Part shown: in pieces, positions 20,189-47,999 of the stretch | Numbering within the stretch: position 1 is the first letter of the stretch | Layout of the letters: each line of letters begins with the position of its first letter | Assembly (NCBI GenBank): GCA_031365865.1 | Contig: JANLYX010000018.1 | Coordinates: 6,859-70,858 of the forward strand | Length of the DNA: 64,000 bases | Origin: Hyphomicrobium sp. | GTDB taxonomy: Bacteria > Pseudomonadota > Alphaproteobacteria > Rhizobiales > Hyphomicrobiaceae | Direction of reading: 5' to 3' | Notes under the pieces: model-generated | The model's input: the letters and a program-made list of their open reading frames with translations, nothing else | Database searches by the model: none | What the model was told of the DNA's origin: nothing | Made by a program: the position numbers and the translations under genes

Positions 20189-20273
20189 GCGTGAGGTATT
20201 TGCGGGTGGAGGATTTGTTCGCTAAACCGGCAAATATCTCCAACAACAAAGTAGTCGCGGGGATATCGACAAA

Positions 20274-21320: not shown

Positions 21321-21393
21321 AATTCCAGGTTTTGAATTGCGGCCGTTGTATCGGGCCGATGTTGGTTGCAAGCGGGAGCCGGTTGGGAGATTT

Positions 21394-22191: not shown

Positions 22192-23635
22192 TCAGGCACA
22201 TCAAGAGCCCGGTGCCACCGGTAATGTCGCCATCCGCCTAAATAAGGTGTCGAAGGCGTATAAGCTGTATCCGAGCATGTCTGCGCAATTCGCCGATGTC
22301 ATGGGCCTCGACCGGCTGATGCGGTGGAAACGCGCTGCGCCGCCTCTTCATCACGCCTTGAGCGACGTTTGCTTTTCGATCCGGAGGGGCGAACGCGTTG
22401 GTGTCATCGGCCGGAACGGTGCGGGAAAAACAACGCTGCTGAAGCTGATTTCAGGATCGGCCCAGCCCACCAGCGGCGATGTCGGCATTCAAGGATCGGT
22501 CCAGGCCTTGATGCAGGTTGGAGTCGGCTTTCATCCAGAATTCACAGGGCTGGAAAATATCAAAGGCTCGCTGATGTACTCCGGCCTGTCGACGCCCGAG
22601 AGGGCCGCCGCGGAACAAGAGATCATCGAGTTCGTGGAACTCGGCGAATATCTCAATCAGCCCATCAAGACCTATTCTTTGGGTATGCAGTCGCGGTTGC
22701 AATTTGCATGTGCGACGGCGATCAAGCCCGAAATTCTGATCGTGGATGAAATACTCGGCGCCGGCGACGCTTATTTCAGCGTCAAGTCATCAATGCGCAT
22801 GGAGCGGCTGACGAAGTCCGGCTGCACCTTGCTGTTGGTTTCCCATTCGATGGCGCAGGTCCTGCAGTTCTGCGAGCGCTGCATATGGATCGACGCGGGC
22901 CGTGTCCGCAGCGACGGCGGTGTCCGCAAAGTCGTCGGCGAGTACGAAGTCTACATGGAAAACATGTCGGCTAAGGCGCTTGGGCAAAGTTCCGCGGCGG
23001 ATAGCCAGGGAGCGTCCAACAGGTCGTTCCGGCTGGGACGAAATGATATCGCCGGCGAAGATTTAGGCGGACCAACGCCGGACGCATCGAACGAAAGCGG
23101 TGCGCCGACGAACGCCGCAGCGCCACCGGAACGTTACGTCGATGTCCTGGAAAGCGGTGAGAAGGTCTTTCGTTGGCCGGCTGAAAAAGGCCCGAAACTC
23201 CGGGCGCTCGACATCTCAAGCGGCGAACTCACGGCGAGGTTCCCTGAAGGCTCAGATCTGTCATTTCGGGTCAAGGTCTGTAACGACTCGGGCGGCGCAG
23301 TTGCATGCCGGTATCAGGTCACAATTCTGGGGCTCGATAATCGGCGCATCACGCGGCTGCTCAGTCCCGTCGACCGCTTTTCCGGCGCACCGGAGACCCG
23401 TATTGCGACGTTGCAACTCAAGCCGTGTCTCCTTCAAGCAGGCGAATACTACGTTAACTTTGCCATCTTGACGGACACGGCGATGCTGGCGGGGGTGCCG
23501 ACGCGCCGCTATGATCTCGTGTCGCGGTTTGGCGACTTTGAGATAACCCGCACCCTCGATTATCGCGAGCGCTGCGTGTTCACCCACCCAGCCGAATGGA
23601 CGGCGCTGGCGCTAGACGATAAGACGGGGTCTTAA
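22175..23635 (+). CDS. wzt: polysaccharide ABC transporter ATPase Wzt with C-terminal (carbohydrate-binding) domain
   Basis: [28 protein letters not shown]; extra ~150-aa beta-rich C-terminal domain after a low-complexity linker. Confidence 0.9.
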
Positions 23636-23662
23636 AATAATGCACAGACCGAGGCGATCGTT

Positions 23663-32340: not shown

Positions 32341-33273
32341 TTAGGACGGCGGTTTCAAATGACTGTAAATGGCCGTCACGCCGTGCCGATCGTACCACGA
32401 CAGCATCCGGCGGATGGTCTCAGCGAATGAATATTGCGGACGCCAGCCAAATGCCGACATGGTCTTTGAGGGATCGAGAACGACCGCGGGGACATCGTCG
32501 GCGCCTGGTTCGACCTCAGGCACCGGCTCCTTCAATTCAATGTTCAGATGATCGACGACGATATCGAAGATCTCCTTTATTGAATGCCCTGTCCCTGTCG
32601 AAACGTTGAAAACGCCCGTTGGCGCCCCCTCTTTCATGGCCAAATCTAGAATCGAGAAAAAGTCATCCATATCGAGAAAGTCGCGAATGGTCTTGGAGCA
32701 GAAGCACGCCTTTCCGGCCTTAAGGCGGGTATAGAACGTCGGAATGGGTCCAATCGCCAAGCGCGGCCCGGTCACATTGGCGAGCCGCATCGACACGAAC
32801 GGCAGGCCCGACATGGCCAGATAGTTTTCTCCCGCCTGCTTGGATATTCCGTAACTCGTGAAAGGCCGCGCCGGAGCGTCGGCTGGAATTGGGATCGACT
32901 CAGGACGGCCATAACCAAGGGCGGTGTGAAAGTTGATGAAGCGCGCGACGTTTGCGGCCTTGGCGGCTTGTGCAACGTGGATGGTGCCCTCGACATTGGT
33001 GCGCGCATCCTCGAGCCAGTCGCCGGGGTCTTTGTAGGCGGCGGCCGAATGAATGACGTGGGTCGGCCGGAAATCCGCGAAGGCTTTGTCAACAAGAGCG
33101 CGATTGGTAATCGAGCCTTCGACAACGGTCATTTTCGGATGCGAACTTGGCAGCGAGCCGCGCAGGCCCGTTGTAAAGTTGTCGATGATGAAAACGTCCG
33201 TTCCCTTTTCGAGATAACGCTCTGTCAGGTTTGAGCCCAGGCAGCCCGCGCCGCCGGTCAAAAGAATGCGCAT
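32341..33273 (-). CDS. wbmG: extended SDR enzyme, Bordetella WbmG-like
   Basis: MRILLTGGAGCLGSNL, HSAAAYKDP, TSYGISK, RLANVTGPRLAIGPIPTFY, VVLDPSKT. Confidence 0.75.
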   Translation of the reverse strand: MRILLTGGAGCLGSNLTERYLEKGTDVFIIDNFTTGLRGSLPSSHPKMTVVEGSITNRALVDKAFADFRPTHVIHSAAAYKDPGDWLEDARTNVEGTIHVAQAAKAANVARFINFHTALGYGRPESIPIPADAPARPFTSYGISKQAGENYLAMSGLPFVSMRLANVTGPRLAIGPIPTFYTRLKAGKACFCSKTIRDFLDMDDFFSILDLAMKEGAPTGVFNVSTGTGHSIKEIFDIVVDHLNIELKEPVPEVEPGADDVPAVVLDPSKTMSAFGWRPQYSFAETIRRMLSWYDRHGVTAIYSHLKPPS

Positions 33274-33288
33274 GTTGTGGTTCCGCGT

Positions 33289-34236
33289 TTACGTGCGCAC
33301 GTCCGCACGCGCTTCTTTGAGATGGGTATAGCCGCCGACGACGCCTTCGCGAGCCCAACGATCAACCGACACCTGTGCAATGTCGTCGAGAGCCGTGAAT
33401 TTGAGGTCGCCGAAGTCGGCGAAGGTGCGTGATGGATCGAGCAGAATTGACTGCGCATCGTCGGGACCAAGCGGCTTGACTTCAGGTTCCGGGTAATCGT
33501 TGAGCTTCATGGCCTTGACGACAGCGTCGTACAATTCCTTGATGGCGACGTCCTTGCCTGACGAGAAGTGGTAGGTGCCTTGGCCCTTGCCATCAGCGGC
33601 TTTGACGACCACCTTGGCGAGATCGCCCGCATAACAAAAGTCACGGCGCGCGGTGGTGACGAAGCACTTCTGGCCCTTGGCGAGACGGCCGTAAAAGATC
33701 GGCAGCGGACCCGATACGTTGCGCTCGCCGATAACGTTTGCCAGGCGGAAGGTCACGAAATCGACGCCGGAAAACTGCACATAGTTCTCGCCCGCGGTCT
33801 TCGAAATGGCGTAGCTCGAGTTGACCGGATTAATCGGGTGATCGAGCGTGATAGGCTGTTGAATGGGCTTAGTGCCGTAGCAAAGGGCGGTCTGGAAATA
33901 GACCAGGCGTTTGACGGCGTGGTTTTTGGACGATCGCGCGATGTTGGCGGTGCCGGCCGCGTTGACGAGCGCGTCCGTTCCCCAATCCTCAGGGTCTTTG
34001 TAAGACGCGGCGGTGTGAACCACCACGTCGGGTTTGAATTCCGAAAACAGCTTTTCGACGAGCGGACCGTTGGTGATGGTATCTTCGATTTGCGTCAGAT
34101 TTGCCTGCGCGTGAAGATTGTCGCGCCGCCCGGTCGCAAAGTTATCGATCGACACGACGGTGTCGCCGCGTGCTAACAGCATATCCGCGACGGTCGATCC
34201 AACTTGGCCGTTGCCGCCCGTAATAAATACCTTCAT
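33289..34236 (-). CDS. wbmH: extended SDR enzyme, Bordetella WbmH-like
   Basis: HTAASYKDP, YFQTALCYG, NSSYAISK, RLANVIG.RNVSGPLPIF, SILLDPSRT, GGYTHLK. Confidence 0.75.
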   Translation of the reverse strand: MKVFITGGNGQVGSTVADMLLARGDTVVSIDNFATGRRDNLHAQANLTQIEDTITNGPLVEKLFSEFKPDVVVHTAASYKDPEDWGTDALVNAAGTANIARSSKNHAVKRLVYFQTALCYGTKPIQQPITLDHPINPVNSSYAISKTAGENYVQFSGVDFVTFRLANVIGERNVSGPLPIFYGRLAKGQKCFVTTARRDFCYAGDLAKVVVKAADGKGQGTYHFSSGKDVAIKELYDAVVKAMKLNDYPEPEVKPLGPDDAQSILLDPSRTFADFGDLKFTALDDIAQVSVDRWAREGVVGGYTHLKEARADVRT

Positions 34237-34275
34237 GGCTTCGTCTATCCTCTGAGTTGAATCGTGAATTTCGAT

Positions 34276-36213
34276 TTATTGCGCGGCCGCAGCCACCGGC
34301 GGCTCGTCGGCAAGCATGCGGCGGTAGCTGGCGGCGCGATCATGGAACAGCTGTTGCCAAAGCTCCAGGTTCAATAGTCCCCAGCCTTTGCGCGAGAAGC
34401 GCTCGCTCTTGTTAAAGTTCGCCAGGATAGCTTCGGAGTTGAAATACTCGCGATGGCGGCTCTTTTCGGAGAAGAAGATATCGCCGACCATATCCTTCAA
34501 TTCGCCGCTAAACCACTCCTGAAGCGGCACCGGGAAGCCCATCTTGTCGCGCCGCTGCAGAAGTTCGGCCGGCAAATGCTCGCCAAACGTCGACTTGATG
34601 AAATGCTTCATCTGCCCGCCTTTGAACTTGATGTCGGCGGGAATGGTCGCCGCAAATTCGATGACGGGGTGATCGAGCAGTGGCACGCGGCTTTCAAGGC
34701 CATGGGCCATCGACATTCTGTCTTCGACCTGCAGGAGAGCCGGCAACAGGCACTTGAAGTCGAAATGAGTCATGGAGTCGAAGTAAGCTTCCTTCTTGAC
34801 GTTGCGCTCGGAATTGAAGATCGCCCCGAAGCGGTCGACAACGCCGGCCCGGTCAAGCTGCCGCCAATCGACTTCATCGACCATGTCGGCCGAGCGGTCG
34901 ATGAGGCGGAAGTACCGTTCGTCGAGCGGACCAAATAGGCCTTTCGAGAACAACTGGCGAATGAGCGGCTTATATTCCTGCAGCATCGTCAGGTGCGGCA
35001 AAATCGATTCGGGCGTCACGACAAAGTTGCCGTTCTTATAGGTGCCGTCGATCGCCGCTTTGATGGATTGTTCGAGATAAGCGATCAAGTATCGGGCATA
35101 GCCGCCGAAGATTTCGTCTCCGCCCTGTCCGCCAAGAACCACCTTGACGCTTTTGGCGGCAAGCTCCGAGACCATGTATTGCGGGAAAGAGCCGGGCCCT
35201 GCGACCGGGTGATCGAGGTGATACACGACCTTCTCGATATTGTTGCGGAAGTCAGAGGCGGTCATGTCCGTCTGGTGCAATTCGATGCCGCCTTTGCGGC
35301 ACGCAGCTTCCGCGTATCCGCTTTCGTCGTAGCCGGGAAACTGCGTGAATTTTCCGTGAAAGCCGACGCGGCCCGAACTCTCTTTGCCGGCAGCCAAGAT
35401 GCCGATGAGACTGGAATCGATGCCGCCCGAAATATAGGCGCCAACGGGGACGTCCGAGCGCATGTGGACATTGATGGAATCGGCCAGCAACTCTTCCATG
35501 CGATTGCCAAACCACGCAGGCGTGTGGTCCCAATCGATTTCGTAATGGACGTCCCAGTAGCGGTGAACCTTGACGGTGCCGTTTTCGACGACGAGTGCAT
35601 GACCTGGCAACAAAACGTGGACATGTTTGAACAGGCTGCGTTCGCCGATGGTGTACTGGAACGTCAGATATTCAGCGAGTGCGTCGGGATCGGTGGCAAT
35701 TTCCGGCAGCACTGGCAGCAGCGCTTTGATCTCGGAGGCGAAGTAAAAAACGCCATCGACGACCGCATAATAGAACGGCTTGATTCCGAAGCGGTCGCGC
35801 GCGGCAAACAAGCGGTTGCCGTCCCAGATTGCAAAAGCAAACATGCCGCGCAACTTTGAAACGCAGTCTGCGCCCCACTTGCCGTAAGCGGCGAGAATTG
35901 TCTCGGTGTCGGACGACGAGCGGAAAGACCAGCCAGATTTCAACTCGTCCTTGAGTTCGAGGTAATTGTAGATTTCGCCGTTATACGTGATCACGGTATT
36001 GTTTGGAGCGGTCATCGGCTGGTGACCAGATGGCGATAGATCGATGATGGCGAGGCGCCGGTGCGCGAGCCCGCATGCCCGATGCTCGCAGGCCCAGATG
36101 CCGGAGCCGTCCGGGCCACGATGAGCGATCAAACGATTCATAACGCTGAGGCGTTGTTCTAGGCCCTGAACGGGCTGGCGATTGAGCGATACAACGCCGG
36201 CTATTCCGCACAT
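34276..36213 (-). CDS. asnB: AsnB-family glutamine amidotransferase (polysaccharide amidation, WbmI-like)
   Basis: MCGIAG, HRGPD, HRRLAIID, NGEIYN, SGGIDSS, GQGGDEIFGGY, DRMSMAHGLESRVP. Confidence 0.88.
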   Translation of the reverse strand: MCGIAGVVSLNRQPVQGLEQRLSVMNRLIAHRGPDGSGIWACEHRACGLAHRRLAIIDLSPSGHQPMTAPNNTVITYNGEIYNYLELKDELKSGWSFRSSSDTETILAAYGKWGADCVSKLRGMFAFAIWDGNRLFAARDRFGIKPFYYAVVDGVFYFASEIKALLPVLPEIATDPDALAEYLTFQYTIGERSLFKHVHVLLPGHALVVENGTVKVHRYWDVHYEIDWDHTPAWFGNRMEELLADSINVHMRSDVPVGAYISGGIDSSLIGILAAGKESSGRVGFHGKFTQFPGYDESGYAEAACRKGGIELHQTDMTASDFRNNIEKVVYHLDHPVAGPGSFPQYMVSELAAKSVKVVLGGQGGDEIFGGYARYLIAYLEQSIKAAIDGTYKNGNFVVTPESILPHLTMLQEYKPLIRQLFSKGLFGPLDERYFRLIDRSADMVDEVDWRQLDRAGVVDRFGAIFNSERNVKKEAYFDSMTHFDFKCLLPALLQVEDRMSMAHGLESRVPLLDHPVIEFAATIPADIKFKGGQMKHFIKSTFGEHLPAELLQRRDKMGFPVPLQEWFSGELKDMVGDIFFSEKSRHREYFNSEAILANFNKSERFSRKGWGLLNLELWQQLFHDRAASYRRMLADEPPVAAAAQ

Positions 36214-36490
36214 TTAGAAATACCCCAACTTACGGCAGGTCACACTTTCTGCCGCTGTCAAAAGGCCTGTACCCTGGTCGCGGAATAGCAGGTGATAATG
36301 CCCTTGTCAGCCCCAGAAGCGGTTTGGGCTCAGGATGTCCCACACCGCAACGCCGCACACGCCTGGGTTGGCGGTGAGGAACGTCGGCTAGCCTTTGATC
36401 TTGCACCGATTTCATGAGTGTTTATTGCCGGAAATCCGCGCCAGCAGACGACGCCGCAAAAGCCTCTCAAATCGGCAAATGAGCAAGGTT

Positions 36491-37615
36491 CTATCGGAAA
36501 TCCCGGTAGACGGCCAAAGTCTGATTGATGACGTGCCGCAACGACAGCGAGGTTTCGACGAGATTGCGGCCGGCAATGCCAAATTGCTGGCAGCGGGCGC
36601 GGTCTGCGAGGGCCTGTCGCAACGCCATTGCCAGGGCGGGTGCGTCGCGGGACGGGACCAGCCAGCCGTTGACGCCGTCGCGGACAACCTCGCGGCAGCC
36701 GGGAACATTGGTGGTGACGATGGGACGGCCGATGGCTGCGGCTTCAAGCAGGGCTTTGGGCAGACCTTCGCGGTACGACGGTAGGCAGACGATCGTTGCC
36801 GAGGCCAGTACGGCCGCCATGTCGTCGCGCCAGCCAAGGTATGTGACCAAACCTTCGCGGACCCAGCCCTCGATGTCAGCGTCGCTGATCGACGACGGAT
36901 TGAGCAGGTCCGGCGCGCCCGCTAAGACGAACTCTGCGTCGACACCGTCGCGTTTGAGCAGCCGCGCCGCTTCGACGAATTCGAGCACGCCTTTGTCCTT
37001 GAGCATGCGCGCGGGCAACACGACCTTGGGCCGTCCGGAGGCAAGTGGTTGCAGCGGGTAAGCCTCAAGATCAACACCCGAACCCCGGATCAACTCGATC
37101 TGATTCGCCGGCGCGAGCCGGCCGGAGATCAAAAGGCCCCGGTCGTCCTCGTTTTGCACGATGACGCGGCTGTTTGAGTGGCCGAGCGCGGACGCCAAGG
37201 CCCGGCGTACCAGCGGACGCAACACGCGTGCCTTGGGGCTTTCGGACGAAAACACAAAGCCCAGACCCATGATGGCATTGACGACGCATTTGACTTTGGT
37301 CACGCGGGCGGCAAGCGAACCATAGAGCACCGGTTTCATGGCGACGTGATGGACGATGTCGGGCCGGACTTTACGATAGATCGCAATGAGCTGAGCGAGG
37401 AAACGTGTTTCGCCGATCGGATTGAGCCCCGAACGATGGAATGAAATCGGAATAAGATTGAGCCCGGCGTCGCGGATTTCATCACCGTGTTTGTCGACGC
37501 GCGTCACGACGCTAACCTCATAGCCTTCGGCCTCAGCCGCTTTGGCCAGCGCTAAGCGATGCGACACGAAATACCAATCCTCGGTCACCAGGTAGAGAAG
37601 TTTTGGACGCGTCAT
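36491..37615 (-). CDS. GT4 glycosyltransferase
   Basis: LLYLVTEDWYFVSHR, GSGVD, RMLKDKG, PSYREGLPKALLEAAA; ATG overlaps the upstream asnB stop (ATGA). Confidence 0.88.
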   Translation of the reverse strand: MTRPKLLYLVTEDWYFVSHRLALAKAAEAEGYEVSVVTRVDKHGDEIRDAGLNLIPISFHRSGLNPIGETRFLAQLIAIYRKVRPDIVHHVAMKPVLYGSLAARVTKVKCVVNAIMGLGFVFSSESPKARVLRPLVRRALASALGHSNSRVIVQNEDDRGLLISGRLAPANQIELIRGSGVDLEAYPLQPLASGRPKVVLPARMLKDKGVLEFVEAARLLKRDGVDAEFVLAGAPDLLNPSSISDADIEGWVREGLVTYLGWRDDMAAVLASATIVCLPSYREGLPKALLEAAAIGRPIVTTNVPGCREVVRDGVNGWLVPSRDAPALAMALRQALADRARCQQFGIAGRNLVETSLSLRHVINQTLAVYRDFR

Positions 37616-39570
37616 CGCCGCCCTCCGGGCACGGTTTCGAGCCAGGCCTGGAACATCAGAACCACCCAGAGCGGGTAGTGCATACCGCGCACGCCGGAGA
37701 GATGATCCAGCCAAGCTTGGCGAACGGGAGCTGGCTTGAAGAACCCGTCTTCGCGCAAGCGCCGCTCGTCGAGCAGGGCTTCCGCCCAGTCGCGCAAAGG
37801 CCCGCGCAACCAACTGTCGAGAGGCACGCCAAAGCCCATCTTTGGCCGCTCGATCAGCGCACGTGGCACATAGCGTTGTAGGACGTGGCGCAACGGCCAT
37901 TTCGAGAGGCCGTCACGGCGCAGAAACGCCTCGGGCAGGCTAGCTGAAAATTCGATTAAGCGGTGATCGAGCATTGGCACGCGCGCTTCCAAGCTGACGG
38001 CCATGGCGGCGCGGTCGACCTTGGCGAGAATATCGCCCGGCAGATAACCGGTGAGATCGCGGGTCATCATGCGCCGCATCGGCGGCAGCGCTGCAATCTG
38101 GACGTCGCTTTCGATGGCAAGCGCGGGCTCACGGCCGGTTACGAGGATTTCTGAAGGGTCGGGCCAATGCGAGAGAAAGCGCCGGTAAATATCGTCGAGC
38201 GAGTCGCATCGCATCACGCTCGCTAGCTTATGAATATGATAGCCGGGGCGCTGCATTTGTTTACGGCGGGGAAGAAGTTTGAGCGCCGGCGTGGCGAGGC
38301 GATCCCATGTTTCAGGCGGCAGTGCGGTCATAGCGGCAACGGCAGCGCGCCGAACGACAGCCGGCATGGCGTTGATGCGCTTCCAGGCCGCACCCGCCAT
38401 TGCGTAGCGGTTATAGCCTGAAAATAATTCGTCGCCGCCATCGCCCGAGAGCGCCACAGTCACGTGCCGGCGCGCCAAGTCCGACACGAGCAAAGTCGGA
38501 ATTTGCGAGCTATCGGCGAACGGTTCGGAATAGATGCCAGCCAGACGCGGCACGGTTGCAAGGGCATCGGCATCGCTGACGTAAAGTTCGGTGTGATCGG
38601 TGCCAAGGTGACGCGCGACCGTTTTGGCATGCTCGGCCTCGTTATAGCCGGGTGTGTTGAAGCCGATCGAGAAGGTTTTGACCGGGCGGGTGCCGAGACT
38701 TTGCATCAAGGCGACGACGGTCGAGCTATCAATGCCGCCAGATAGAAAAGCGCCGAGCGGCACGTCGGCGAGCATTTGACCGGCGATGGATTGCTTCAGC
38801 AGTCTTTCAACTTCGTTGACAGCTTCATCCGGAGAGCCGGAGAACGGAGACTTCGCGCCGCGAGAGGCTACTTCCGGCGCGCTCCAGTAACGGGTGATGG
38901 CAATAGTCTCGCCGGCATCGTCGGCCTCGAGATAGCAGCCGGGTTCAAGTTTGCGGATGCCGGAGAAAATCGAATGCGGCGCGGGCACATGATTGTAGCG
39001 CAGCATCAGGGCGAGGGCGTCGCGGTCAATCTCGCACTGCCAGAGTGGGTGCCGCCACAGCGCCGCCAGTTCCGAGCCAAACAGGAAGACGCCGTTGTTC
39101 GATCCGAAGTAGAGCGGCTTTTCACCGATCCTATCGCGGGCGAGCGTCAGCCGCCGCTTATCGCGATCCCAGACGGCGAACGCAAACATGCCAACCGACA
39201 TTTCGAGCGCCGCCGCAATACCACGCTTTTCGATAGCCTCGAGAAAAACTTCGGTGTCGGAATGGCCGCGCCAGGCTGGAGAGTGCCCGGCATCTTCAAG
39301 TTTTCGGCGGATGTCGCGGTGATTGTAGATTTCGCCGTTGAAAGCGATGACGAAGCGTCCGCTTGCCGACACCATCGGCTGGTGGCCGGCGGGCGAGAGA
39401 TCGACAATGGACAGGCGGCGGTGGCCAAGTGCGAGGCCGGCATCTGGATCTGTCCAGGTGCCGCTGTCGTCGGGGCCGCGGTGAACGATAGCATCGGCCA
39501 TACGGCGGACCGTCGCTTCGTGCGTCGCGCTGGGCGCTGGCTTACCGATGAACCCTACAAATCCACACAT
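37612..39570 (-). CDS. asnB: second AsnB-family amidotransferase
   Basis: MCGFVG, HRGPD, DRIGEKPLY, SGGIDSS, SGDGGDELF.GY, KVDRAAMAVSLEARVP. Confidence 0.88.
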   Translation of the reverse strand: MCGFVGFIGKPAPSATHEATVRRMADAIVHRGPDDSGTWTDPDAGLALGHRRLSIVDLSPAGHQPMVSASGRFVIAFNGEIYNHRDIRRKLEDAGHSPAWRGHSDTEVFLEAIEKRGIAAALEMSVGMFAFAVWDRDKRRLTLARDRIGEKPLYFGSNNGVFLFGSELAALWRHPLWQCEIDRDALALMLRYNHVPAPHSIFSGIRKLEPGCYLEADDAGETIAITRYWSAPEVASRGAKSPFSGSPDEAVNEVERLLKQSIAGQMLADVPLGAFLSGGIDSSTVVALMQSLGTRPVKTFSIGFNTPGYNEAEHAKTVARHLGTDHTELYVSDADALATVPRLAGIYSEPFADSSQIPTLLVSDLARRHVTVALSGDGGDELFSGYNRYAMAGAAWKRINAMPAVVRRAAVAAMTALPPETWDRLATPALKLLPRRKQMQRPGYHIHKLASVMRCDSLDDIYRRFLSHWPDPSEILVTGREPALAIESDVQIAALPPMRRMMTRDLTGYLPGDILAKVDRAAMAVSLEARVPMLDHRLIEFSASLPEAFLRRDGLSKWPLRHVLQRYVPRALIERPKMGFGVPLDSWLRGPLRDWAEALLDERRLREDGFFKPAPVRQAWLDHLSGVRGMHYPLWVVLMFQAWLETVPGGRR

Positions 39571-39624
39571 GCCGGATCGGCCTCGTTTCTCGCGGGTTCC
39601 GTCATCGGATCGTCGCAGCCTCGA

Positions 39625-40911
<1,287 letters not shown>

Positions 40912-41072
40912 GGTCTTGCGATGCTCCCCAATATGGCTTCGGCAGGATCGTAAAATCCCTCGCGGGTAGCGGTACATGCCTAAGCTTTCGGGGTCAACTG
41001 CGCGGGCCATTTGCTTGTGCCAGCGGGGTTGATTTCCCCTGCGGTCTATCGACCGGGGGAGACGCTCAAGGC

Positions 41073-41918
41073 TTATCCAAGATGGGCGGCGGCGCGGACG
41101 ATAAACGGCGGATTGAGGAAGTTGGTGTCATGCTTGCCGTAGAGCAACGCGCCGCCGTCCAATATCGTGACGGTGCCGCCTGCGGCCGTGACGATGGCGT
41201 GGCCGGCGGCGGTATCCCATTCCTTGGTTGGCCCAAGGCGCGGATAGAGATCGGCCAAGCCTTCGGCGACGAGACAGAATTTCAACGACGAGCCGACGTT
41301 GCGCCGCTCTCCGATCGTGATATTGGAAAGCCAGTGTTCGAGTTCCGGTGATCCGTGCGACCGGCTCGCGACGATTGTTTGGGGTGCACGCGGATCGTGA
41401 CTGCGAACCGCCAAGCGCGTCAACATCAGGTGATCGAGATCGGGTGCGGGGTGATCAGGCGCGATGTTCGCGGTCACTGCGTGGGTGCGGCCGAGCGTGA
41501 TGTAGAGCTTCGACAAAGCCGGCGCATAAATAACGCCAAAGACGGGAACGCCGTTGTCGATCAAGCCAACGTTGATTGTGAATTCGCCGATGCCGTTGGT
41601 GAACTCGCGCGTGCCGTCGAGCGGATCGACGAGGAAAAACTGCGAGGCGGTTGTGGATGCCGCGCCGCCGGCGTGAGCTTCCTCGGCGACGACGGGAATG
41701 CCGGGTGCAATACGGCTAAGCGCTGCAAGCAGAATATCTTCCGAGAGCTGATCGGCAATTGTGACGGGCGAACCGTCGCTTTTACTTGCGACGGCACCGC
41801 CAGCCTTGAAGTGCCGCATGGTGACCCGGCCGGCAGCGATGACGGCGGGCAAAAGTTCGCGGGCGAGGTGGTCTTCATCATGAATTTTCAACACGGCGAT
41901 CCTGGACCTAGACGGCAT
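41073..41918 (-). CDS. cysQ: 3'(2'),5'-bisphosphate nucleotidase CysQ
   Basis: PVTIAD, LVDPLDGTREF, GSSLK, PRLGPTKEWDTAAG. Confidence 0.9.
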   Translation of the reverse strand: MPSRSRIAVLKIHDEDHLARELLPAVIAAGRVTMRHFKAGGAVASKSDGSPVTIADQLSEDILLAALSRIAPGIPVVAEEAHAGGAASTTASQFFLVDPLDGTREFTNGIGEFTINVGLIDNGVPVFGVIYAPALSKLYITLGRTHAVTANIAPDHPAPDLDHLMLTRLAVRSHDPRAPQTIVASRSHGSPELEHWLSNITIGERRNVGSSLKFCLVAEGLADLYPRLGPTKEWDTAAGHAIVTAAGGTVTILDGGALLYGKHDTNFLNPPFIVRAAAHLG

Positions 41919-42085
41919 CGGCGCCGCGCGCGTCGTTATTAACGGCAGAAAACGTTGGGCTTTCGACTACAGGGCCGGCACTTAACGGTCAATGCGCGCG
42001 CTCGCTGCGGGGAAGTTATCCCCGTCGGTTGTGGCCGGGTTATTATCAGCTTGGAGGACGCAAGACGACACAGGATTAACGTCGA

Positions 42086-44893
42086 ATGGATCAAACGCCC
42101 AACCTGCAGCTCCCCTACATTCTGGCTGCCCAAAGCCAAAAGCACGTCACTCACAACGAGGCCCTGAGGGCGCTCGACAATGTCGTCCAGCTGACCGTGC
42201 TCGACCGCAATCTGGCGACGCCGCCGCCAACGCCCGCTGAAGGTCACCGCTATCTCGTCGCGGCCGGTCCGACCGGAACCTGGGCGGGTCACGCCAACCA
42301 CATCGCCGCTTTCGTCGATGGGGCGTGGCTGTTCTACGTGCCGATCGAGGGCTGGATAACTTGGATCGCGGATGAAAACATCGCGCTGGCTTACGATGGC
42401 GCGGCGTGGGTGACGCTGAGCGGCGGCGTCTCGGCTCATGGCGCGCTGACCGGTCTGCTCAATGACGATCATACGCAGTATCTAACCAATGCGCGCGGCG
42501 ACGCCCGTTATACGCCGGTCAACCCCGCAACGCTTGGCATCAACGCGACAGCGGATGCGACCAACAAATTGGCGGTGGCGAGTTCGGCTTCGCTGTTCAA
42601 TCATACAGGTTCCGGCGGGCACCAGATCAAGATCAACAAGGCGTTGGCTGCGGACACGGCAAGCTTCTTGTTTCAAACCGGGTTCTCCGGGCGCGCCGAG
42701 CTTGGCACCACGGGCGACGATGATTTTCATTTCAAGGTCAGCGCCAATGGCACGGCCTGGAACGATGCCCTGGTGATCAACCGTACCAGCGGGGCCTGCA
42801 CGTTTCCAAATACCGCGGTTGGCAGCGGTACGGTCACGCAGGTTGCAACTGGCACAGGCCTGACGGGCGGGCCGGTGACGGGAACCGGCACCATCAGCCT
42901 CGCCAACATGGCGGCCAACACTTTGAAGGGCAATAACACCGGTGCGGCGGCGGCGCCGGGCGATCTGACGGCGGCGCAAGTCAAAACCATGCTGGCGATC
43001 GCGGCGGTGGATGTTTCTGGTCTGGCGGCCATTGCAACATCAGGTTCAGCTTCGAACTTGGTGGCGGGCACGGTGCCAGCGGCGCAAATGCCGGCGCATA
43101 CCGGCGATGTCACGAGCACAGCCGGCAGCACGGCGCTGACGATTGCGGCGAATGCCGTGAGTAACGCCAAGGCGGCGCAGATGGCGGCGTCGACGCTCAA
43201 AGGCAACAACACCGGCGCTGCCGCCAACGCGGCCGATCTGACGGCGGCGCAGGTCAAGACGATGCTGGCGATCGCGAGCACGGACGTCTCCGGTCTCGGC
43301 GCGCTGGCGACGCTGTCGACGGTCAATCTCTCCACGCAAGCGACCGGCACGCTGCAGGCGGCGCAAGAACCTGCCCATACCGGCGATGTCACCAATGCCG
43401 CCGGATCGCTGGCGCTGACCATTGCGGCCAATGCCGTGACCAACGCCAAGATCGCGCAGATGGCGGCGAGTACGATCAAAGGCAACAACACGGGTGCCGC
43501 CGCCAATGCCGCCGATCTGACGGCGGCGCAAGTCAAAGCTTTGCTGGCGATCGCGAGCACGGACGTGTCCGGTCTCGGCGCGCTGGCGACGCTGTCGTCG
43601 GTCAATCTCTCGACGCAAGCGACCGGCACGCTGCAGGCGGCGCAAGAACCTGCGCACACCGGCGATGTCACCAACGCCGCCGGTTCGCTGGCGCTGACAA
43701 TTGCCACCAACGCGGTGACCAATGCCAAGGCCGCGCAGATGGCGGCCTCGACCCTTAAGGGCAACAATACCGGCGCAGCCGCCAACGCGGCAGACCTGAC
43801 GGCGACCCAAGTCACAGCCATGCTCGACACGGCGGTCGCCTCGGGTGCCAGTGCCAAGAAGGGCCTAGTGCCAGATCCCGGCACGACGGCGGGCACAACG
43901 CGCTTCCTGCGCGAAGACATGACCTGGTTCACGCCGCCGGGTGGCGGTGGCGGTGGCACACCCGGCGGCGCGTCTGGCGATGTACAGTTCAACAGTGCGG
44001 GTGTCTTCGGCGGCTTCACGCTTGGCGGCGACGCCACCGTCAACACCGGAACCGGCGCACTGACCCTTGCGACCAATGCCGTGAGCAACGCCAAAGCCGC
44101 GCAGATGGCGGCCAAGACCATCAAAGCCAACGTCTCGGCGGCGACCGCCAACGCCACCGACGCGACGGTTGACCAGGTCTCGAACATTCTCCCCGGCGGA
44201 CCGATGGAGCGCGGCTACCGGCTCAGCCCGCGCGTCGAAACCGATTTCTTGAACGTCGCCGCGCCGTGGGGCCCGTTCGCGAATACGGCGATCTCAACGG
44301 GGACACTCAGTTTTTCGGGGACAGGTGTTGTAACGGCCAATCACCCTGGCTGCATCACGATCAACTCGTCGACATCGGCGAATAGCGGCGAAGTCATGGG
44401 AACCGGAAGCACCAACGCTGCGCAGTTCCTTCTCGGTGGCGGCGAACAATTCGATGTTGTTTTCAAAACCGGTGCGGCCTTCACCAACATCACGATGCGA
44501 TTCGGATTTCACGACACCGCCACTAGCGCCGACGCCGTCGATGGCGCATATTTCGAAGTCTCGACGGCAGGCGTGGTCACGGGAAAAACGTCCAGCAACT
44601 CGGTGCGCACGACCAGCGCGACGATTGCAACTTTGGCGGTAAGCACCTGGTACCACGCCCGCGTCAGGGTCAACGCCAACGCGACGGCGGTCGATTACAC
44701 GATCTTCGACGATAGCGGAACGCAACTCGGAACCGTTCAAAATACCACCAATATTCCAATCGCCGCCGGGCGCGAAACCGGTGTCGCATTTGTTGCAACA
44801 AGTGCGGGCACCACGGCGACCGCGCTCTGCCACCTCGATTACATGAGCTATTGCTATCAGGGCAGGACACTGGCGAGAGGCGCGCTGACATGA
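42086..44893 (+). CDS. DUF2793-domain fibre-like protein with internal tandem repeats and C-terminal beta/lectin-like domain
   Basis: N-terminal TPNLQLPYILAAQSQKHVTHNEALRALD...W.F..P.EGW (DUF2793); Ala/Thr-rich repeats; beta-rich C-terminus. Confidence 0.75.
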   Translation: MDQTPNLQLPYILAAQSQKHVTHNEALRALDNVVQLTVLDRNLATPPPTPAEGHRYLVAAGPTGTWAGHANHIAAFVDGAWLFYVPIEGWITWIADENIALAYDGAAWVTLSGGVSAHGALTGLLNDDHTQYLTNARGDARYTPVNPATLGINATADATNKLAVASSASLFNHTGSGGHQIKINKALAADTASFLFQTGFSGRAELGTTGDDDFHFKVSANGTAWNDALVINRTSGACTFPNTAVGSGTVTQVATGTGLTGGPVTGTGTISLANMAANTLKGNNTGAAAAPGDLTAAQVKTMLAIAAVDVSGLAAIATSGSASNLVAGTVPAAQMPAHTGDVTSTAGSTALTIAANAVSNAKAAQMAASTLKGNNTGAAANAADLTAAQVKTMLAIASTDVSGLGALATLSTVNLSTQATGTLQAAQEPAHTGDVTNAAGSLALTIAANAVTNAKIAQMAASTIKGNNTGAAANAADLTAAQVKALLAIASTDVSGLGALATLSSVNLSTQATGTLQAAQEPAHTGDVTNAAGSLALTIATNAVTNAKAAQMAASTLKGNNTGAAANAADLTATQVTAMLDTAVASGASAKKGLVPDPGTTAGTTRFLREDMTWFTPPGGGGGGTPGGASGDVQFNSAGVFGGFTLGGDATVNTGTGALTLATNAVSNAKAAQMAAKTIKANVSAATANATDATVDQVSNILPGGPMERGYRLSPRVETDFLNVAAPWGPFANTAISTGTLSFSGTGVVTANHPGCITINSSTSANSGEVMGTGSTNAAQFLLGGGEQFDVVFKTGAAFTNITMRFGFHDTATSADAVDGAYFEVSTAGVVTGKTSSNSVRTTSATIATLAVSTWYHARVRVNANATAVDYTIFDDSGTQLGTVQNTTNIPIAAGRETGVAFVATSAGTTATALCHLDYMSYCYQGRTLARGALT
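42905..43810 (+). repeat. coding tandem repeat, ~279-nt (93-aa) unit, ~3.3 copies
   Basis: GGCAA(C/T)AA(C/T) (Gly-Asn-Asn) anchors at 42929, 43202, 43481 and 43760 (spacings 273, 279, 279); a further partial unit lies near 44060-44160. Confidence 0.85.
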
Positions 44894-45045: not shown

Positions 45046-46122
45046 ATGAAAATTGTTGTAACGGGTGGTGCTGGGTTTATCGGGTCGGCCGTGTGCCGGT
45101 TGCTGGTTGGCGAGTGGGGCCACGAGGTCGTCAATATCGATAGCCTGACTTATGCGGCCAACCTCGGCTCGCTGGAACCGATTGTCAAAAATTCCCGCTA
45201 TAGCTTTTATCAGCTCAATGTTTGCGACCGGGCGGCGATGGCTGACCTGTTACGCCTCGAGCAGCCTGACGCGATCATGCATCTGGCCGCCGAGAGCCAC
45301 GTCGATCGTTCGATTACCGGCTCGAACGCCTTCATCGAAACCAATATTATCGGCACCTACGCCATGCTCGAAGCCGCACGCGGTTACTGGTCGGAGCTGC
45401 CGAAGCGGCGCAAAGACGCCTTCCGCTTCTTGCATATCTCGACGGATGAAGTTTTCGGCAGCCTGGGTGATGAAGGATTTTTCACCGAGACAACGGCCTA
45501 CGACCCAAGTTCTCCTTATTCCGCCAGCAAAGCCGCGTCCGATCATCTGGTCATGGCCTGGCATCGCACCTACGGGCTGCCTGTGGTGCTGTCCAATTGC
45601 TCCAACAACTATGGCCCCTATCACTTTCCCGAGAAGCTGGTGCCGCTGATGATCACTAACGCGCTGCTTGGCCGCGACTTGTCGATTTACGGTATGGGCA
45701 CCAACGTACGCGATTGGCTGTATGTCGAGGATCATGCCAAGGCGTTGTTCGCGGTGCTGACCAAAGGCACGCCCGGCGAGCGCTATGCGGTTGGCGGGCG
45801 CAACGAAAAAAGCAATCTCGAAGTCGTGCATAAAATCTGCGAATTGCTCGATGAGGCGGCGCCACGAGAAGATGGCTGCTCCCACACTGCCGCCATCAAC
45901 TTCGTCGAAGACCGGCCGGGCCACGATTTCCGCTATGCCATCGACGCAACCAAGATCGAGCGCGAGCTTGGCTGGCGCGCCGCTGAAAGTTTTGACAGCG
46001 GCTTGCAAAAGACCGTTGCCTGGTATCTCGCCAATGAGATGTGGTGGCTGCCGCTGCGTCTCAAGAGTTATTCCGGTGAGCGCCTGGGGCTGATCGAAAA
46101 AGCCAAAACGGCGGCAGCCTAG
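45046..46122 (+). CDS. rfbB: dTDP-glucose 4,6-dehydratase
   Basis: [48 protein letters not shown]. Confidence 0.95.
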
Positions 46123-46136
46123 CCAATGGCCACGCC

Positions 46137-47027
46137 ATGACCCAACAGCGCATTGCCGTCATCGGCGCATCGGGGCAGGTTGCGCAAGCCTTGGTGCGCG
46201 CGGCATTGGTTCGCGCACTGGATTTGATCGTTGCTGGGCGGCCGCAAGCCGATATAACCGATCTTGCGAGCTTGAGCCGCCTATTTGCCGATTGCCGGCC
46301 TGACCTCGTCATCAACGCCAGCGCTTACACAGCCGTCGACAAAGCGGAAGTGGAGATCGCGGCCGCCCGTGCCATCAACGAAGAAGGCCCGGCCCGCCTC
46401 GCCGTGCTGTGCCAGGCGACGGGCGCGGCCCTCATGCACATTTCAACGGATTATGTTTTTGACGGCGATTCGCGCATACCCTACGCCGAAGACGATAAGC
46501 GCCGCCCCCAAAGCGTTTACGGCGTCACGAAATCAGCGGGCGAAGACGCCATTCGCACCGCACTTGCGCGTCACGCCATCTTCCGGACGGCCTGGGTGTA
46601 TGGGCCCGATGGCCAGAATTTCTTGAAGACGATGCTGCGGCTTGGCGCCGAGCGCGACGAGGTTCGGGTTGTTGCCGATCAATTCGGCACGCCGACACCA
46701 GCCGATCTGATTGCCACCAGCCTTCTCGATGTTGCCCCGCGTCTACTGGCAGATGGCAACCGTGATGGCTTGTGGGGCACCTATCATTTGACGGCTGCGG
46801 GCGAAACGTCTTGGCACGATTATGCGGGCGAAATCTTTAGGCAGGCCGCTCTTGCCGGGCGCAAGGTGCCGCGTTTGCATGCCATTTCGAGCAGCGAATA
46901 TCCAACAGCCGCGACCCGGCCGAAGTATTCGGTTCTCGATTGCTCTAAACTGCGCAATACCTTCGGCCTTGAGCTGCCCGCTTGGCAAGACGGCGTTGCA
47001 AATTGTGTTAGGCGACTGGCTCACTGA
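46137..47027 (+). CDS. rfbD: dTDP-4-dehydrorhamnose reductase
   Basis: NASAYTAVDKAE, HISTDYVFDG, YGVTKSAGE, DQFGTPT, RPKYSVLD. Confidence 0.92.
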   Translation: MTQQRIAVIGASGQVAQALVRAALVRALDLIVAGRPQADITDLASLSRLFADCRPDLVINASAYTAVDKAEVEIAAARAINEEGPARLAVLCQATGAALMHISTDYVFDGDSRIPYAEDDKRRPQSVYGVTKSAGEDAIRTALARHAIFRTAWVYGPDGQNFLKTMLRLGAERDEVRVVADQFGTPTPADLIATSLLDVAPRLLADGNRDGLWGTYHLTAAGETSWHDYAGEIFRQAALAGRKVPRLHAISSSEYPTAATRPKYSVLDCSKLRNTFGLELPAWQDGVANCVRRLAH

Positions 47028-47080
47028 AGACTGCCTCACTGAAGACTGGCTCACTGAAAACCGCCTCACTGAAGACCGGC
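47014..47080 (+). repeat. 15-bp tandem repeat (GACTGGCTCACTGAA, ~4.5 copies) spanning the rfbD stop codon
   Basis: Units at 47014, 47029, 47044, 47059 and a partial unit at 47074. Confidence 0.9.
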
Positions 47081-47126
47081 GCATTGAGTTGGGCGCGAAG
47101 TTCGGGCGCCCGGAATTGGGGAAGAC

Positions 47127-47999
47127 ATGAAAGCCATCATCCTGGCCGGCGGTAGCGGCACGCGGCTGTATCCGATGACACTGACGGTCTCGAAACAGAT
47201 CTTGCCGGTCTACGACAAGCCGCTGATCTATTATCCGCTGTCGGTACTGATGCTCGGTGGCGTGCGCGATATTCTGGTCATCTCGACGCCGCGCGATTTG
47301 CCGGGCTTTGCCGCGCTACTTGGTGACGGCCGGCAATGGGGCCTCAATCTCAGTTACGCCGAGCAGGCCCGCCCGGACGGCCTGGCGCAGGCTTTCATTA
47401 TCGGAGAGCGGTTCATCGGCAAAGATCCGTGCGCCATGGTTCTGGGCGACAATATTTTCTACGGTCACGGACTGTCCGACATGGTCAGGGAGGCGTTCGA
47501 GCCGCGCCGCGGCGCCACCGTTTTTGCCCATCAAGTCTCGGATCCCGAACGTTATGGCGTGGTCGCCTTCGATGAGCGCGGCCGGGCCACCTCGATTGAG
47601 GAAAAACCGGCGAAGCCAAAGTCGAACTGGGCGGTGATCGGGCTTTATGCCTACGACAACGACGTCGTGCAGATTGCCAAGAGCTTGCGCCCCTCAAGCC
47701 GGGGCGAGCTCGAAATCACCAGCCTCAACGCCGCCTATCTGGCGCGTGGCGATCTTGCGGTCCGCAAGATGGGGCGGGGCTTTGCGTGGTTCGATACGGG
47801 CACGCCCGACAGCCTGTTGGAGGCCGCAAACTACGTGGCGACAATCGAGAAGCGCCAGGGTTTGAAAGTGGCGAGTCCGGAAGAAATCGCGGTCCGGCAG
47901 GGCTTTATCACGGTCAACGATCTCGAACGGTTGATCGGGGAACGTTATGCCAAAAACGACTATGGCCGCTATCTCAAATCGGTTTTGGCGGAGTTTTAA
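47127..47999 (+). CDS. rfbA: glucose-1-phosphate thymidylyltransferase
   Basis: [48 protein letters not shown]. Confidence 0.95.

What the first reader, a model, noticed from the sequence alone, without database searches (positions are those of the whole stretch)
42086..44893. Orphan DUF2793 tail-fibre-like protein parked in the middle of the surface-glycan locus
Seen: a 935-aa protein with an N-terminal DUF2793 module, a ~300-aa Ala/Thr/Asn repeat stalk and a beta-rich C-terminal domain (WYHARVRVN...), lying between cysQ and rmlB, with no phage structural genes in the window and no signal peptide. Known: DUF2793 occurs in alphaproteobacterial phage/GTA tail-associated proteins. Inference: this may be a trans-encoded receptor-binding fibre for a GTA or tailocin, co-located with the glycan genes so that fibre and receptor (or self-immunity) are exchanged together.
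Basis: partly seen in the sequence, partly recalled or inferred. Interest (0 to 1): 0.75.

Follow-up and report, generated by a model that had tools for sequence, protein, structure and literature searches.

The report
Orphaned gene-transfer-agent tail fibre gene
This gene encodes the sugar-binding tail fibre of a gene transfer agent (a domesticated phage-like particle). It is a known kind of gene, but here the particle's own genes have been cut out of the genome, leaving an intact fibre with nothing to attach to.

Summary
Window 42086-44893 (+) is a real 935-aa gene with three parts: an N-terminal DUF2793 module, a stalk of 93-aa Ala/Thr-rich repeats, and a C-terminal SO2946-like domain that models as a ConA-type lectin. 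It lies between cysQ and rmlBDA in a large, probably sulfated, polysaccharide locus. No phage structural genes are in the window.

The gene belongs to the Rcc00171 family, the RcGTA tail fibre.

Three points are new here.
- This Hyphomicrobium genome has lost its GTA. A ~12-kb deletion on another contig fuses the portal gene in frame to the lysin gene and removes capsid, tail and the megatron docking protein.
- Four further alleles from related genomes and metagenome contigs have different deletions whose left breakpoint falls in the same portal Tyr codon. The four related genomes with deleted clusters, one more decayed, each keep an intact fibre.
- The fibre sits at a conserved slot (prk-rpe-hrpB | fibre), and glycan islands of 0-31 kb have grown there. 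The fibre tip type co-varies with the island.

The fibre is most likely a recently orphaned component. A particle-independent role is not excluded.

The parts
42086..44893 (+). Complete fibre gene, 935 aa (P0001)
   Evidence: ORF listing and translation. 1693 homologues. dN/dS 0.04-0.26.
42086..42835 (+). N-terminal rod/knob module, residues 1 to about 250 (Pfam DUF2793 at 23-109 = 42152-42412). This is the part that docks on the megatron (g15) fibre-binding domain in RcGTA and phage R4C.
   Evidence: Pfam E 1e-31. PDB 8gtc_S E 2e-12 over residues 4-138. 33-51% identity to fibre genes of R. capsulatus, Paracoccus and Roseobacter siphophages. Only 1 deviation at 73 highly conserved columns. The docking role is taken from PMC7296036 and PMC10276861.
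42878..43885 (+). Shaft of 93-aa Ala/Thr-rich repeats: about 3.5 copies, plus a degenerate restart at residue 664
   Evidence: Motif and unit analysis. TRF period 279 bp, 2.7 copies at 43067-43814. Homologues differ in length.
44339..44839 (+). C-terminal receptor-binding head: SO2946-like_C domain with a ConA/legume-lectin-type beta-sandwich fold
   Evidence: Pfam E 3.5e-29. AlphaFold model pLDDT 76, pTM 0.80. Foldseek PDB hits: 2a5z (E 2e-10), legume lectins, phage J-1 Dit CBM2. BFVD phage proteins, top hit E 4e-24, TM 0.82.
42012..42050 (+). Promoter-like motif AAGTTATCCCCG-N17-GTTATTAT, about 70 nt upstream of the start codon
   Evidence: Conserved upstream of the fibre gene in all 21 relatives inspected. 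The same motif precedes many housekeeping genes in this genome, so it is a general promoter type rather than GTA-specific.
41073..41918 (-). cysQ (PAP phosphatase), the last gene of the glycan island, divergent from the fibre
   Evidence: TIGR01331 E 1.2e-72, above its cut-off. Pfam Inositol_P.
11535..41918 (.). Variable surface-polysaccharide island of about 30 kb. It holds DegT aminotransferase, glycosyltransferases, a UDP-GlcNAc 2-epimerase, an ABC-2 exporter pair, two sulfotransferases, APS kinase, epimerases, two AsnB-like amidotransferases, UDP-glucose dehydrogenase and cysQ.
   Evidence: Pfam scans. The island measures 0, 1.2, 4.7 or 30.7 kb in different relatives.
6146..11332 (.). Conserved left backbone: prk (6146-7021), rpe (7041-7715), epimerase (7730-8821, -), hrpB (8867-11332)
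   Evidence: Pfam. Found immediately or closely upstream of the fibre gene in about 33 of the 80 related loci, and in the same-genus genome G016.
45046..47999 (+). rmlB-rmlD-rmlA (dTDP-rhamnose pathway), directly downstream of the fibre
   Evidence: Pfam. Orthologous rml genes (rmlB and/or rmlA at 74-92% identity) lie directly downstream of the fibre in the 14 closest related loci (L002-L008, L010-L016).

Best explanation
The gene is the Hyphomicrobium orthologue of Rcc00171, the tail fibre of RcGTA-type gene transfer agents.

In a GTA-producing cell it would work as a trimeric receptor-binding fibre. The N-terminal rod/knob (DUF2793) plugs into the fibre-binding domain of the baseplate megatron protein g15. 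The 93-aa repeats form an extended shaft. The C-terminal ConA-like lectin head binds a surface polysaccharide on recipient cells.

The gene occupies a conserved chromosomal slot (prk-rpe-hrpB | fibre | rml). Strain-variable glycan islands accumulate at that slot, which keeps the fibre tip and the glycan genes linked.

In this particular genome the partner is gone. A deletion of about 12 kb joined codon ~327 of the GTA portal gene in frame to the middle of the downstream lysin gene. It removed the prohead protease, capsid, tail tube, tape measure, hub, peptidase and megatron genes. The fibre is therefore a true orphan. It is most likely a recently stranded and still undecayed component with no particle to join.

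Shown here: family membership, domain anatomy, synteny, the deletion, and its recurrence. Inferred: trimer formation, docking, sugar binding, and that the loss was recent.
For: Family:
- Pfam DUF2793 E 1e-31 and a PHROG tail-fibre family.
- E 2e-12 to the R4C fibre 8GTC_S. PMC10276861 describes it as 9 copies forming three trimers bound to the megatron.
- Homologues in RcGTA-like siphophages sit next to a 'GTA-like protein'.
- Rcc00171 carries DUF2793, is essential for gene transfer, lies beside EPS genes (PMC5026251) and binds capsule (PMC10218006).

Tip: lectin fold.

Linkage to GTA: DUF2793 and GTA_TIM co-occur in 59 of 81 sampled genomes of the family, p 0.002. 21 of 25 genomes holding the closest fibre loci have g15.

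Deletion:
- Neither of the two related GTA structural regions (14 GTA ORFs in L090, and L089) has a hit in the 96%-complete genome, apart from terL on C9, the portal N-terminus (residues 44-327) and the lysin C-terminus (residues 202-497). The last two abut on contig C8 within one 591-aa ORF. Pfam reads that ORF as Phage_portal 4-248/321, then GH108, then PG_binding_3.
- An independently assembled contig of a public run spans the junction with no mismatch.
- No HK97 capsid, Phage-tail_3 or sheath family is present, and there is only one DUF2793 gene.

Slot and island.
Against: Recency is inferred, not dated.
- The fibre shows no relaxation of selection. dN/dS is 0.04-0.13 for the N-terminus and 0.10-0.26 for the tip, and GTA-deleted lineages do not differ from GTA-bearing ones.
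- It has only 1 deviation at 73 conserved positions.
- All four related genomes with independently deleted GTA clusters also keep intact fibre ORFs. This includes G086, whose terL and portal remnants are already fragmented. Persistence after loss could mean the fibre has value without the particle.

No expression, particle or binding data exist, and no RNA run was found. The genome is a 97-contig MAG, so an unrecognised particle type cannot be fully excluded.
Confidence: 0.72

Rival explanations
1. The fibre is kept because it does something without a GTA particle. For example, it could act as a free lectin that binds the cell's own or neighbours' polysaccharide after release. In that role it might block incoming GTAs or phages that use the same receptor, or serve in adhesion. 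Purifying selection would then continue after the head-tail cluster is lost.
For: The fibre is intact in all 5 genomes with a deleted GTA cluster. There is no rise in dN/dS or loss of conserved residues. The promoter motif is of a general type shared with housekeeping genes. Purified Rcc00171 added to cells blocks RcGTA transfer in a dose-dependent way (PMC5026251), so a free fibre can occupy the receptor.
Against: There is no signal peptide or other export signal. dS between the compared genomes is 0.4-2, so a recent loss would be invisible in dN/dS. The GTA remnants (terL, portal N-terminus) are equally undecayed, which argues for recency rather than special selection on the fibre. DUF2793 and GTA presence are correlated across the family.
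Confidence: 0.2
2. The fibre serves another phage-like particle of this strain, either a prophage, a tailocin or a second GTA, that is encoded elsewhere or is missing from the draft assembly.
For: The genome is a 97-contig MAG with an estimated 96% completeness. DUF2793 fibres also occur in unrelated phages of Pseudomonas, Salmonella and Klebsiella. The same-genus genome G062 has a second g15+fibre locus.
Against: No GTA_TIM, HK97 capsid, Phage-tail_3 or sheath family is found anywhere in the genome. tblastn with the ORFs of two related GTA structural regions (L090 and the second g15 locus L089) finds only the remnants. The two flanks of the GTA cluster are contiguous on one contig, and this is supported by an independent assembly.
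Confidence: 0.06
3. It is not a particle fibre at all, but a cellular glycan-binding or S-layer-like surface protein belonging to the polysaccharide locus.
For: It lies between glycan genes, has a lectin-fold tip and a repetitive Ala/Thr-rich shaft.
Against: The N-terminal module is homologous to a structurally resolved baseplate-bound fibre. There is no secretion signal. In some relatives and phages the homologue lies directly after the megatron gene. Its chromosomal slot is conserved even where no glycan island is present.
Confidence: 0.02

Closest known systems
Rcc00171, tail fibre of the Rhodobacter capsulatus gene transfer agent RcGTA (Hynes et al. 2016, PMC5026251; Bardy et al. 2020, PMC7296036; Alim et al. 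2023, PMC10218006)
   Same: Both have an N-terminal DUF2793 rod/knob, are encoded outside the head-tail cluster next to extracellular-polysaccharide genes, and carry a C-terminal sugar-binding foot. The family co-occurs and co-evolves with GTA genes (PMC10883770).
   Different: The protein here is 935 aa against 371 aa. It has a shaft of 93-aa repeats and a ConA-type lectin head (SO2946-like), rather than the pyocin-like foot proposed for RcGTA. The cognate GTA cluster has been deleted in this genome.
Fibre protein vBDshSR4C_017 of roseophage vB_DshS-R4C (PDB 8GTC chain S; PMC10276861)
   Same: It is the only solved structure found by sequence (E 2e-12, residues 4-138 of both proteins). Its rod and knob bind the megatron fibre-binding domain, and it has a lectin-like foot.
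   Different: The R4C fibre is 230 aa, has no repeat shaft, has an 8-stranded beta-barrel foot, and is encoded directly after the megatron gene inside a phage genome.
SO2946 of Shewanella oneidensis MR-1 (PDB 2A5Z) and SO2946-like C-domains of uncultured Caudovirales proteins
   Same: The C-terminal domain has the same fold (Foldseek E 2e-10, TM 0.66; BFVD top hit E 4e-24, 41% identity). Several of the viral proteins carry tail-fibre-type N-terminal regions.
   Different: SO2946 has no assigned function and no DUF2793 module. My recollection that it lies in the LambdaSo prophage was not checked here.
MuF-fused polymorphic toxins of temperate phages (Zhang et al. 2012, PMC3482391; Jamet et al. 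2017, PMC5576092). Relevant to the side observation on GTA portals.
   Same: A toxin domain is fused to a head-internal phage protein, immunity genes lie downstream, and orphan cassettes are present.
   Different: Here the carrier is the HK97-type portal of a GTA cluster, not MuF. The two full-text searches I ran found no paper describing portal-toxin fusions in GTAs.

Membership tests
Rcc00171 / DUF2793 GTA-type tail fibre | N-terminal DUF2793 (rod/knob) domain | tested here: met
   Pfam PF10983 E 1e-31, 109 bits against a cut-off of 27. E 2e-12 to 8GTC_S.
Rcc00171 / DUF2793 GTA-type tail fibre | C-terminal carbohydrate-binding foot or head | tested here: met
   The predicted structure has a ConA/legume-lectin-type fold. 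Binding itself was not tested.
Rcc00171 / DUF2793 GTA-type tail fibre | Encoded apart from the head-tail cluster, beside polysaccharide genes | tested here: met
   No phage genes in the 64-kb window. The same arrangement is found in the 14 closest related loci.
Rcc00171 / DUF2793 GTA-type tail fibre | Cognate GTA baseplate (megatron g15 with fibre-binding domain) present in the same genome | tested here: not met
   GTA_TIM and Phage-tail_3 are absent. A deletion scar fusing portal to lysin lies on contig C8. The feature is present in the same-genus genomes G016 and G062.
Rcc00171 / DUF2793 GTA-type tail fibre | Physical component of the particle, trimeric, required for transfer | not testable with these tools
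   This needs particle proteomics and genetics in a GTA-proficient relative.
Prophage-encoded tail fibre | Lies within a contiguous prophage tail module | tested here: not met
   The neighbours are cysQ, rmlBDA and glycan genes. No phage family was found in the window.
R-type tailocin fibre | Contractile sheath and tube cluster in the genome | tested here: not met
   Phage_sheath_1 (PF04984) is absent from the whole genome.

The most novel reading that the evidence does not exclude
GTA loss in Hyphomicrobium may not be random decay but a recurrent, site-specific, one-ended deletion.

Five independent alleles start inside the same portal Tyr codon (…GGAATTCCCGGCGAYAAYACGTA^), which lies 12-15 nt after a GGAATTCC palindrome. 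The alleles come from the own genome, two related MAGs and two metagenome contigs. They run rightwards to five different end points. The same ~25-nt site also bounds a toxin-cassette insertion.

This pattern suggests a sequence-specific nuclease or recombinase that switches GTA production off. The trans-encoded fibre stays intact and under purifying selection, so it may have a particle-independent role as a lectin or receptor blocker, or be kept ready for re-acquisition of a GTA cluster.
Probability: 0.2. Interest if true: 0.75.

Novelty: new member of a known kind. Interest (0 to 1): 0.42.

Why it matters
The fibre itself is a routine member of a characterised family, and the fibre-beside-glycan arrangement is published.

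What this locus adds is a natural experiment on how the multilocus GTA 'genome' falls apart. The core cluster is removed cleanly and repeatedly, while the distant receptor-binding gene survives at a glycan-island hotspot. This bears on two open questions: whether GTAs are maintained by selection, and how fibre specificity stays matched to surface glycans.

The shared deletion breakpoint and the toxin-tipped portals found on the way could open a testable link between GTAs and inter-strain conflict.

Tried and rejected
- CtrA boxes (TTAA-N7-TTAA) upstream of the fibre in 22 loci: none found.
- The conserved upstream motif AAGTTATCCCCG-N17-YATAMT looked like a GTA-regulon promoter. It also precedes nuoE, hflK, ggt and other housekeeping genes, so it is not evidence of co-regulation.
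- RNA runs for the fibre gene: none available.
- Pairwise dN/dS cannot date the loss, because dS is 0.4-2. The lysin comparisons for GTA-bearing genomes were out of frame and were discarded.
- I tested whether the portal breakpoint is simply the module boundary where toxin tails are attached. It is not. In 120 extended portals the portal domain runs to residue 420-435 before the extension begins.
- G011, which appeared to lack GTA, has an intact cluster cut off by a contig end. Absence of GTA_TIM alone is therefore not proof of loss.
- The fibre ORFs of L011 and L015 look truncated. Both come from MFD MAGs (which I believe are Nanopore-based) that also show frameshifts in other genes, so they were not counted as decay.
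- The NCBIfam scan of the fibre gave nothing.
Full report
OBSERVATION

Window 42086-44893 (+) is a 935-aa ORF.
- Pfam finds DUF2793 at residues 23-109 (E 1e-31) and SO2946-like_C at 752-918 (E 3.5e-29).
- PHROGs returns phage families over residues 1-356, one of them annotated as tail fibre.
- Between the two domains lies a shaft of 93-aa repeats. Units start at about residues 265, 356 and 449, with partial units at 542 and 664. Residues 271-600 are 28% Ala and 14% Thr. TRF sees a 279-bp period, 2.7 copies, 84% matches.
- The upstream neighbour is cysQ (TIGR01331, above its cut-off). The downstream neighbours are rmlB, rmlD and rmlA.
- Pfam scans of more than 40 window ORFs found no phage structural gene. 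Instead they show a large polysaccharide locus at about 11.5-50 kb. It holds DegT, glycosyltransferases, a UDP-GlcNAc 2-epimerase, an ABC-2 exporter pair, two sulfotransferases, APS kinase, several epimerases, two AsnB-like enzymes, UDP-glucose dehydrogenase, cysQ, rmlBDA and GH114.
- The sulfotransferases together with cysC and cysQ suggest a sulfated glycan. This is inference.

WHAT IT IS

N-terminal module. The only solved relative by sequence is chain S of PDB 8GTC (E 2e-12, residues 4-138 of both proteins). 8GTC is the distal tail and baseplate of roseophage vB_DshS-R4C. Its fibre protein is present in nine copies forming three trimers. [quoted passage not shown]

The R4C baseplate is homologous to that of RcGTA, whose fibre is Rcc00171 (PMC7296036). 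Published facts about Rcc00171:
- It carries DUF2793, is often mis-annotated 'ribonuclease III', and is essential for gene transfer.
- It lies outside the structural cluster, directly downstream of EPS genes (PMC5026251).
- It binds capsule (PMC10218006).
- DUF2793 is listed among the genes that co-evolve with GTA genes (PMC10883770).

A tblastn of residues 1-260 against phage genomes finds the fibre genes of R. capsulatus, Paracoccus and Roseobacter siphophages at 33-51% identity. Several of these lie next to a 'GTA-like protein'.

C-terminal domain. Modelled with 18 homologues, it reached pLDDT 76 and pTM 0.80, with the core above 85. It is a ConA-type beta-sandwich.
- The best PDB matches are SO2946 (2A5Z, E 2e-10), many legume lectins, the CBM2 of phage J-1 Dit, and GH16 glucanases.
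- The best viral match is an SO2946-like domain of an uncultured caudovirus (E 4e-24, TM 0.82, 41% identity). Other matches carry tail-fibre-type N-terminal regions.

Homologues keep the N-terminal module but swap tips (PF22237, PF21722, PF19264, PF24243) and vary in repeat number. This modular behaviour is expected of receptor-binding fibres.

ORGANISM AND ITS GTA

The closest loci are all from Hyphomicrobium or other Hyphomicrobiaceae.

Across 81 sampled genomes of the family, 64 have the megatron marker GTA_TIM and 69 have DUF2793. Both are present in 59, only GTA_TIM in 5, only DUF2793 in 10, and neither in 7. Fisher p is 0.002. In some genomes the fibre lies about 2 kb after g15, as in phages. 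In most it lies elsewhere.

The own genome (3.23 Mb, 97 contigs, 96% complete) has:
- one DUF2793 gene;
- no GTA_TIM;
- no HK97 capsid;
- no Phage-tail_3;
- no sheath.

THE DELETION

The same-genus genomes G016 and G062 carry a canonical cluster. Its order is terL, portal, protease, capsid, tail tube, DUF2460, hub, NlpC/P60, megatron, then a CHAP-GH108-PG_binding lysin.

tblastn of every ORF of two related GTA structural regions (L090 and the second g15 locus L089) against the own genome finds only three pieces:
- terL on contig C9;
- portal residues 44-327 at C8:1642-2493;
- lysin residues 202-497 at C8:2476-3327.

The last two abut inside one open frame, reading …GIPGDNTF/TDDPYDRAGPTNRGITLE…. 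Pfam reads that 591-aa product as Phage_portal (model positions 4-248 of 321), followed directly by GH108 and PG_binding_3.

Relative to G062 the deletion removes 12,164 bp. A 1.5-kb contig from an independent assembly of a public freshwater-sediment run spans the junction without mismatch. Related strains in other runs continue with intact portal or lysin sequence at that point. The fibre is thus truly orphaned. Its docking partner was deleted; it is not merely unassembled.

RECURRENCE

Four related genomes that lack GTA_TIM also carry internal deletions, and all keep an intact fibre ORF of 589-860 aa:
- G087: portal::g15 at residue 1046.
- G089: portal::g15 at residue 741.
- G104: protease::g15 at residue 939.
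- G086: a more decayed state.

Closer relatives of each retain full clusters, so the losses are independent.

In G000, G087 and G089 the left breakpoint lies within the same portal Tyr codon (…GGAATTCCCGGCGAYAAYACG-TAY). The microhomology to the right-hand partner is only 1-3 nt.

A pattern scan of metagenome contigs returned 20 loci, about 14 of them in portal context. Two of these again break at that codon:
- L121: portal::g15 at residue 515, in frame.
- L116: portal joined to DNA beyond the lysin.

That makes five alleles with one fixed left end and five different right ends. Five of the six clean fusions, counting G104, are in frame.

In G093 a toxin-cassette insertion is bounded 14 nt upstream of the same spot. 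I have no demonstrated mechanism. A sequence-specific nick or cut next to the palindrome, with one protected end, would fit the pattern. This is speculation.

IS THE FIBRE STILL UNDER SELECTION?

- Pairwise dN/dS is 0.04-0.13 for the N-terminal 250 codons and 0.10-0.26 for the tip. GTA-deleted lineages do not differ from GTA-bearing ones. For example, L010(-)/L012(+) gives dS 0.375 and omega 0.085, while L012(+)/L013(+) gives dS 0.394 and omega 0.113.
- At 73 columns conserved in at least 93% of 81 fibres, the five orphan fibres deviate at 0-1 positions, like the rest.
- The terL and portal remnants are equally clean.

This fits recent, repeated losses confined to the tips of the tree. It does not exclude a particle-independent role.

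GENOMIC SLOT

The fibre follows a conserved backbone of prk-rpe-(epimerase)-hrpB.
- In many Hyphomicrobiaceae it starts about 100 nt after rpe or hrpB, with no glycan genes in between. This holds for L004, L007, L016, L026 and others, and for same-genus G016.
- In L015 one glycosyltransferase intervenes.
- In L008, L010 and L014 a 4.7-kb GT4-asnB-ugd block intervenes.
- In the own genome a 30.7-kb island intervenes.

Orthologous rml genes follow the fibre in the 14 closest related loci.

Tip type tracks the island. With ugd upstream, the lectin tip PF22237 is present in 9 of 10 loci. With no island, the Gly-rich tip PF21722 is present in 3 of 3 loci. These counts are not corrected for phylogeny.

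So the fibre is the resident, and glycan genes accrete beside it. This supports the idea that fibre tip and surface glycan are kept linked. That linkage has already been noted for RcGTA, and in several earlier findings of this scan.

REGULATION

A motif AAGTTATCCCCG-N17-YATAMT lies about 70 nt upstream of every fibre gene inspected. It also precedes many housekeeping genes, and the GTA clusters of G016 and G062. It therefore says nothing specific about co-regulation with the GTA. No CtrA box was found.

SIDE OBSERVATION

GTA portals of this group often carry C-terminal toxin tails.
- G093's portal is 569 aa, with a KYSPDQPRVPAG..GGQW linker and an extra domain. It is followed by small ORFs, an orphan cassette with a CdiA_C domain (E 1.7e-10), and a displaced portal 3' remnant.
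- A database search returned 120 extended portals, 114 with more than 100 extra residues. Many are annotated with CdiA-CT RNase A, CdiA_C or deaminase domains, including in cultured Hyphomicrobium strains.
- In the own genome a deaminase-like ORF (HAE…CxxC) and an Imm1 gene sit just upstream of the portal remnant on contig C8; terL lies on a separate contig (C9).
- MuF-toxin fusions are the known analogue (PMC3482391). The two full-text searches I ran found no paper on portal-toxin fusions in GTAs.

VERDICT

The new points are:
- the demonstrated loss of the cognate GTA;
- the recurrence of that loss at a fixed breakpoint;
- the persistence of the fibre after the loss;
- the island-accretion picture of the locus.

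Noticed in passing
L094 (own genome contig C8) 1555-3327; junction at about 2484-2491: A single 591-aa ORF fuses GTA portal residues up to ~327 in frame to the GH108/PG-binding half of the downstream lysin. It is the scar of a ~12-kb deletion that removed the protease, capsid, all tail genes and the megatron.
   Followed up: yes
L094:2446-2525; L096:3605-3684; L099:3282-3361; L121 (minus strand, motif start 1427 on the reverse complement); L116:1411-1440: Five independent deletion alleles share a left breakpoint inside the same portal Tyr codon (GGAATTCCCGGCGAYAAYACGTA^). Their right ends all differ: lysin residue 205, g15 residues 1046, 741 and 515, and a point beyond the lysin. Four are in-frame fusions. 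The mechanism is unknown.
   Followed up: partly
L102 (G093) 1695-5640; L103 (G082) 17871-19304; proteins P0121-P0240: GTA/HK97-type portals of Hyphomicrobiales often carry C-terminal polymorphic-toxin tails (CdiA-CT RNase A, CdiA_C, deaminase) after a PAGxxxGGQW-like linker. Downstream lie small putative immunity ORFs, orphan cassettes and displaced portal 3' remnants.
   Followed up: partly
L094 (own contig C8) 72-1010: A contig-cut ORF with a deaminase-like HAE…CxxC motif is followed by an Imm1 immunity gene (PF14430, E 4.5e-5). Both lie just upstream of the portal remnant on contig C8; the surviving terminase gene is on a separate contig (C9:1267-2637), and the linkage between the two contigs is inferred.
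   Followed up: partly
window 42012-42050, and 31 other sites in the own genome (e.g. C85:22303, C84:91432, C84:149710): A conserved promoter-like motif AAGTTATCCCCG-N17-YATAMT lies upstream of the fibre in all relatives. It also lies upstream of nuoE, hflK, ggt and three near-identical putative RNA loci, and of the GTA clusters of G016 and G062. It does not match the usual sigma-70 -35 hexamer.
   Followed up: partly
window 8867-11332: hrpB (an ATP-dependent helicase) is the conserved left neighbour of the fibre slot in many Hyphomicrobiaceae. hrpB is listed among genes that co-evolve with GTA genes in PMC10883770. Physical linkage to the fibre might contribute to that signal.
   Followed up: no
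window 23663-29966 and 41073-41918: Two sulfotransferases, an APS kinase (cysC-like) and cysQ lie within the polysaccharide locus, together with an ABC-2 exporter pair (21295-23635). This points to an ABC-exported, sulfated surface glycan.
   Followed up: partly
L011:10001-12470 and L015:10001-12791: The fibre ORFs appear truncated (481 and 474 aa) even though tblastn matches run full length. Both come from MFD MAGs (which I believe are Nanopore-based) that also show frameshifts in portal and hub genes, so these are probably sequencing errors.
   Followed up: no
window 56830-57726: A TrcR-family transcriptional cell-cycle regulator gene (PF06242, E 5e-64) lies about 12 kb downstream of the fibre.
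   Followed up: no
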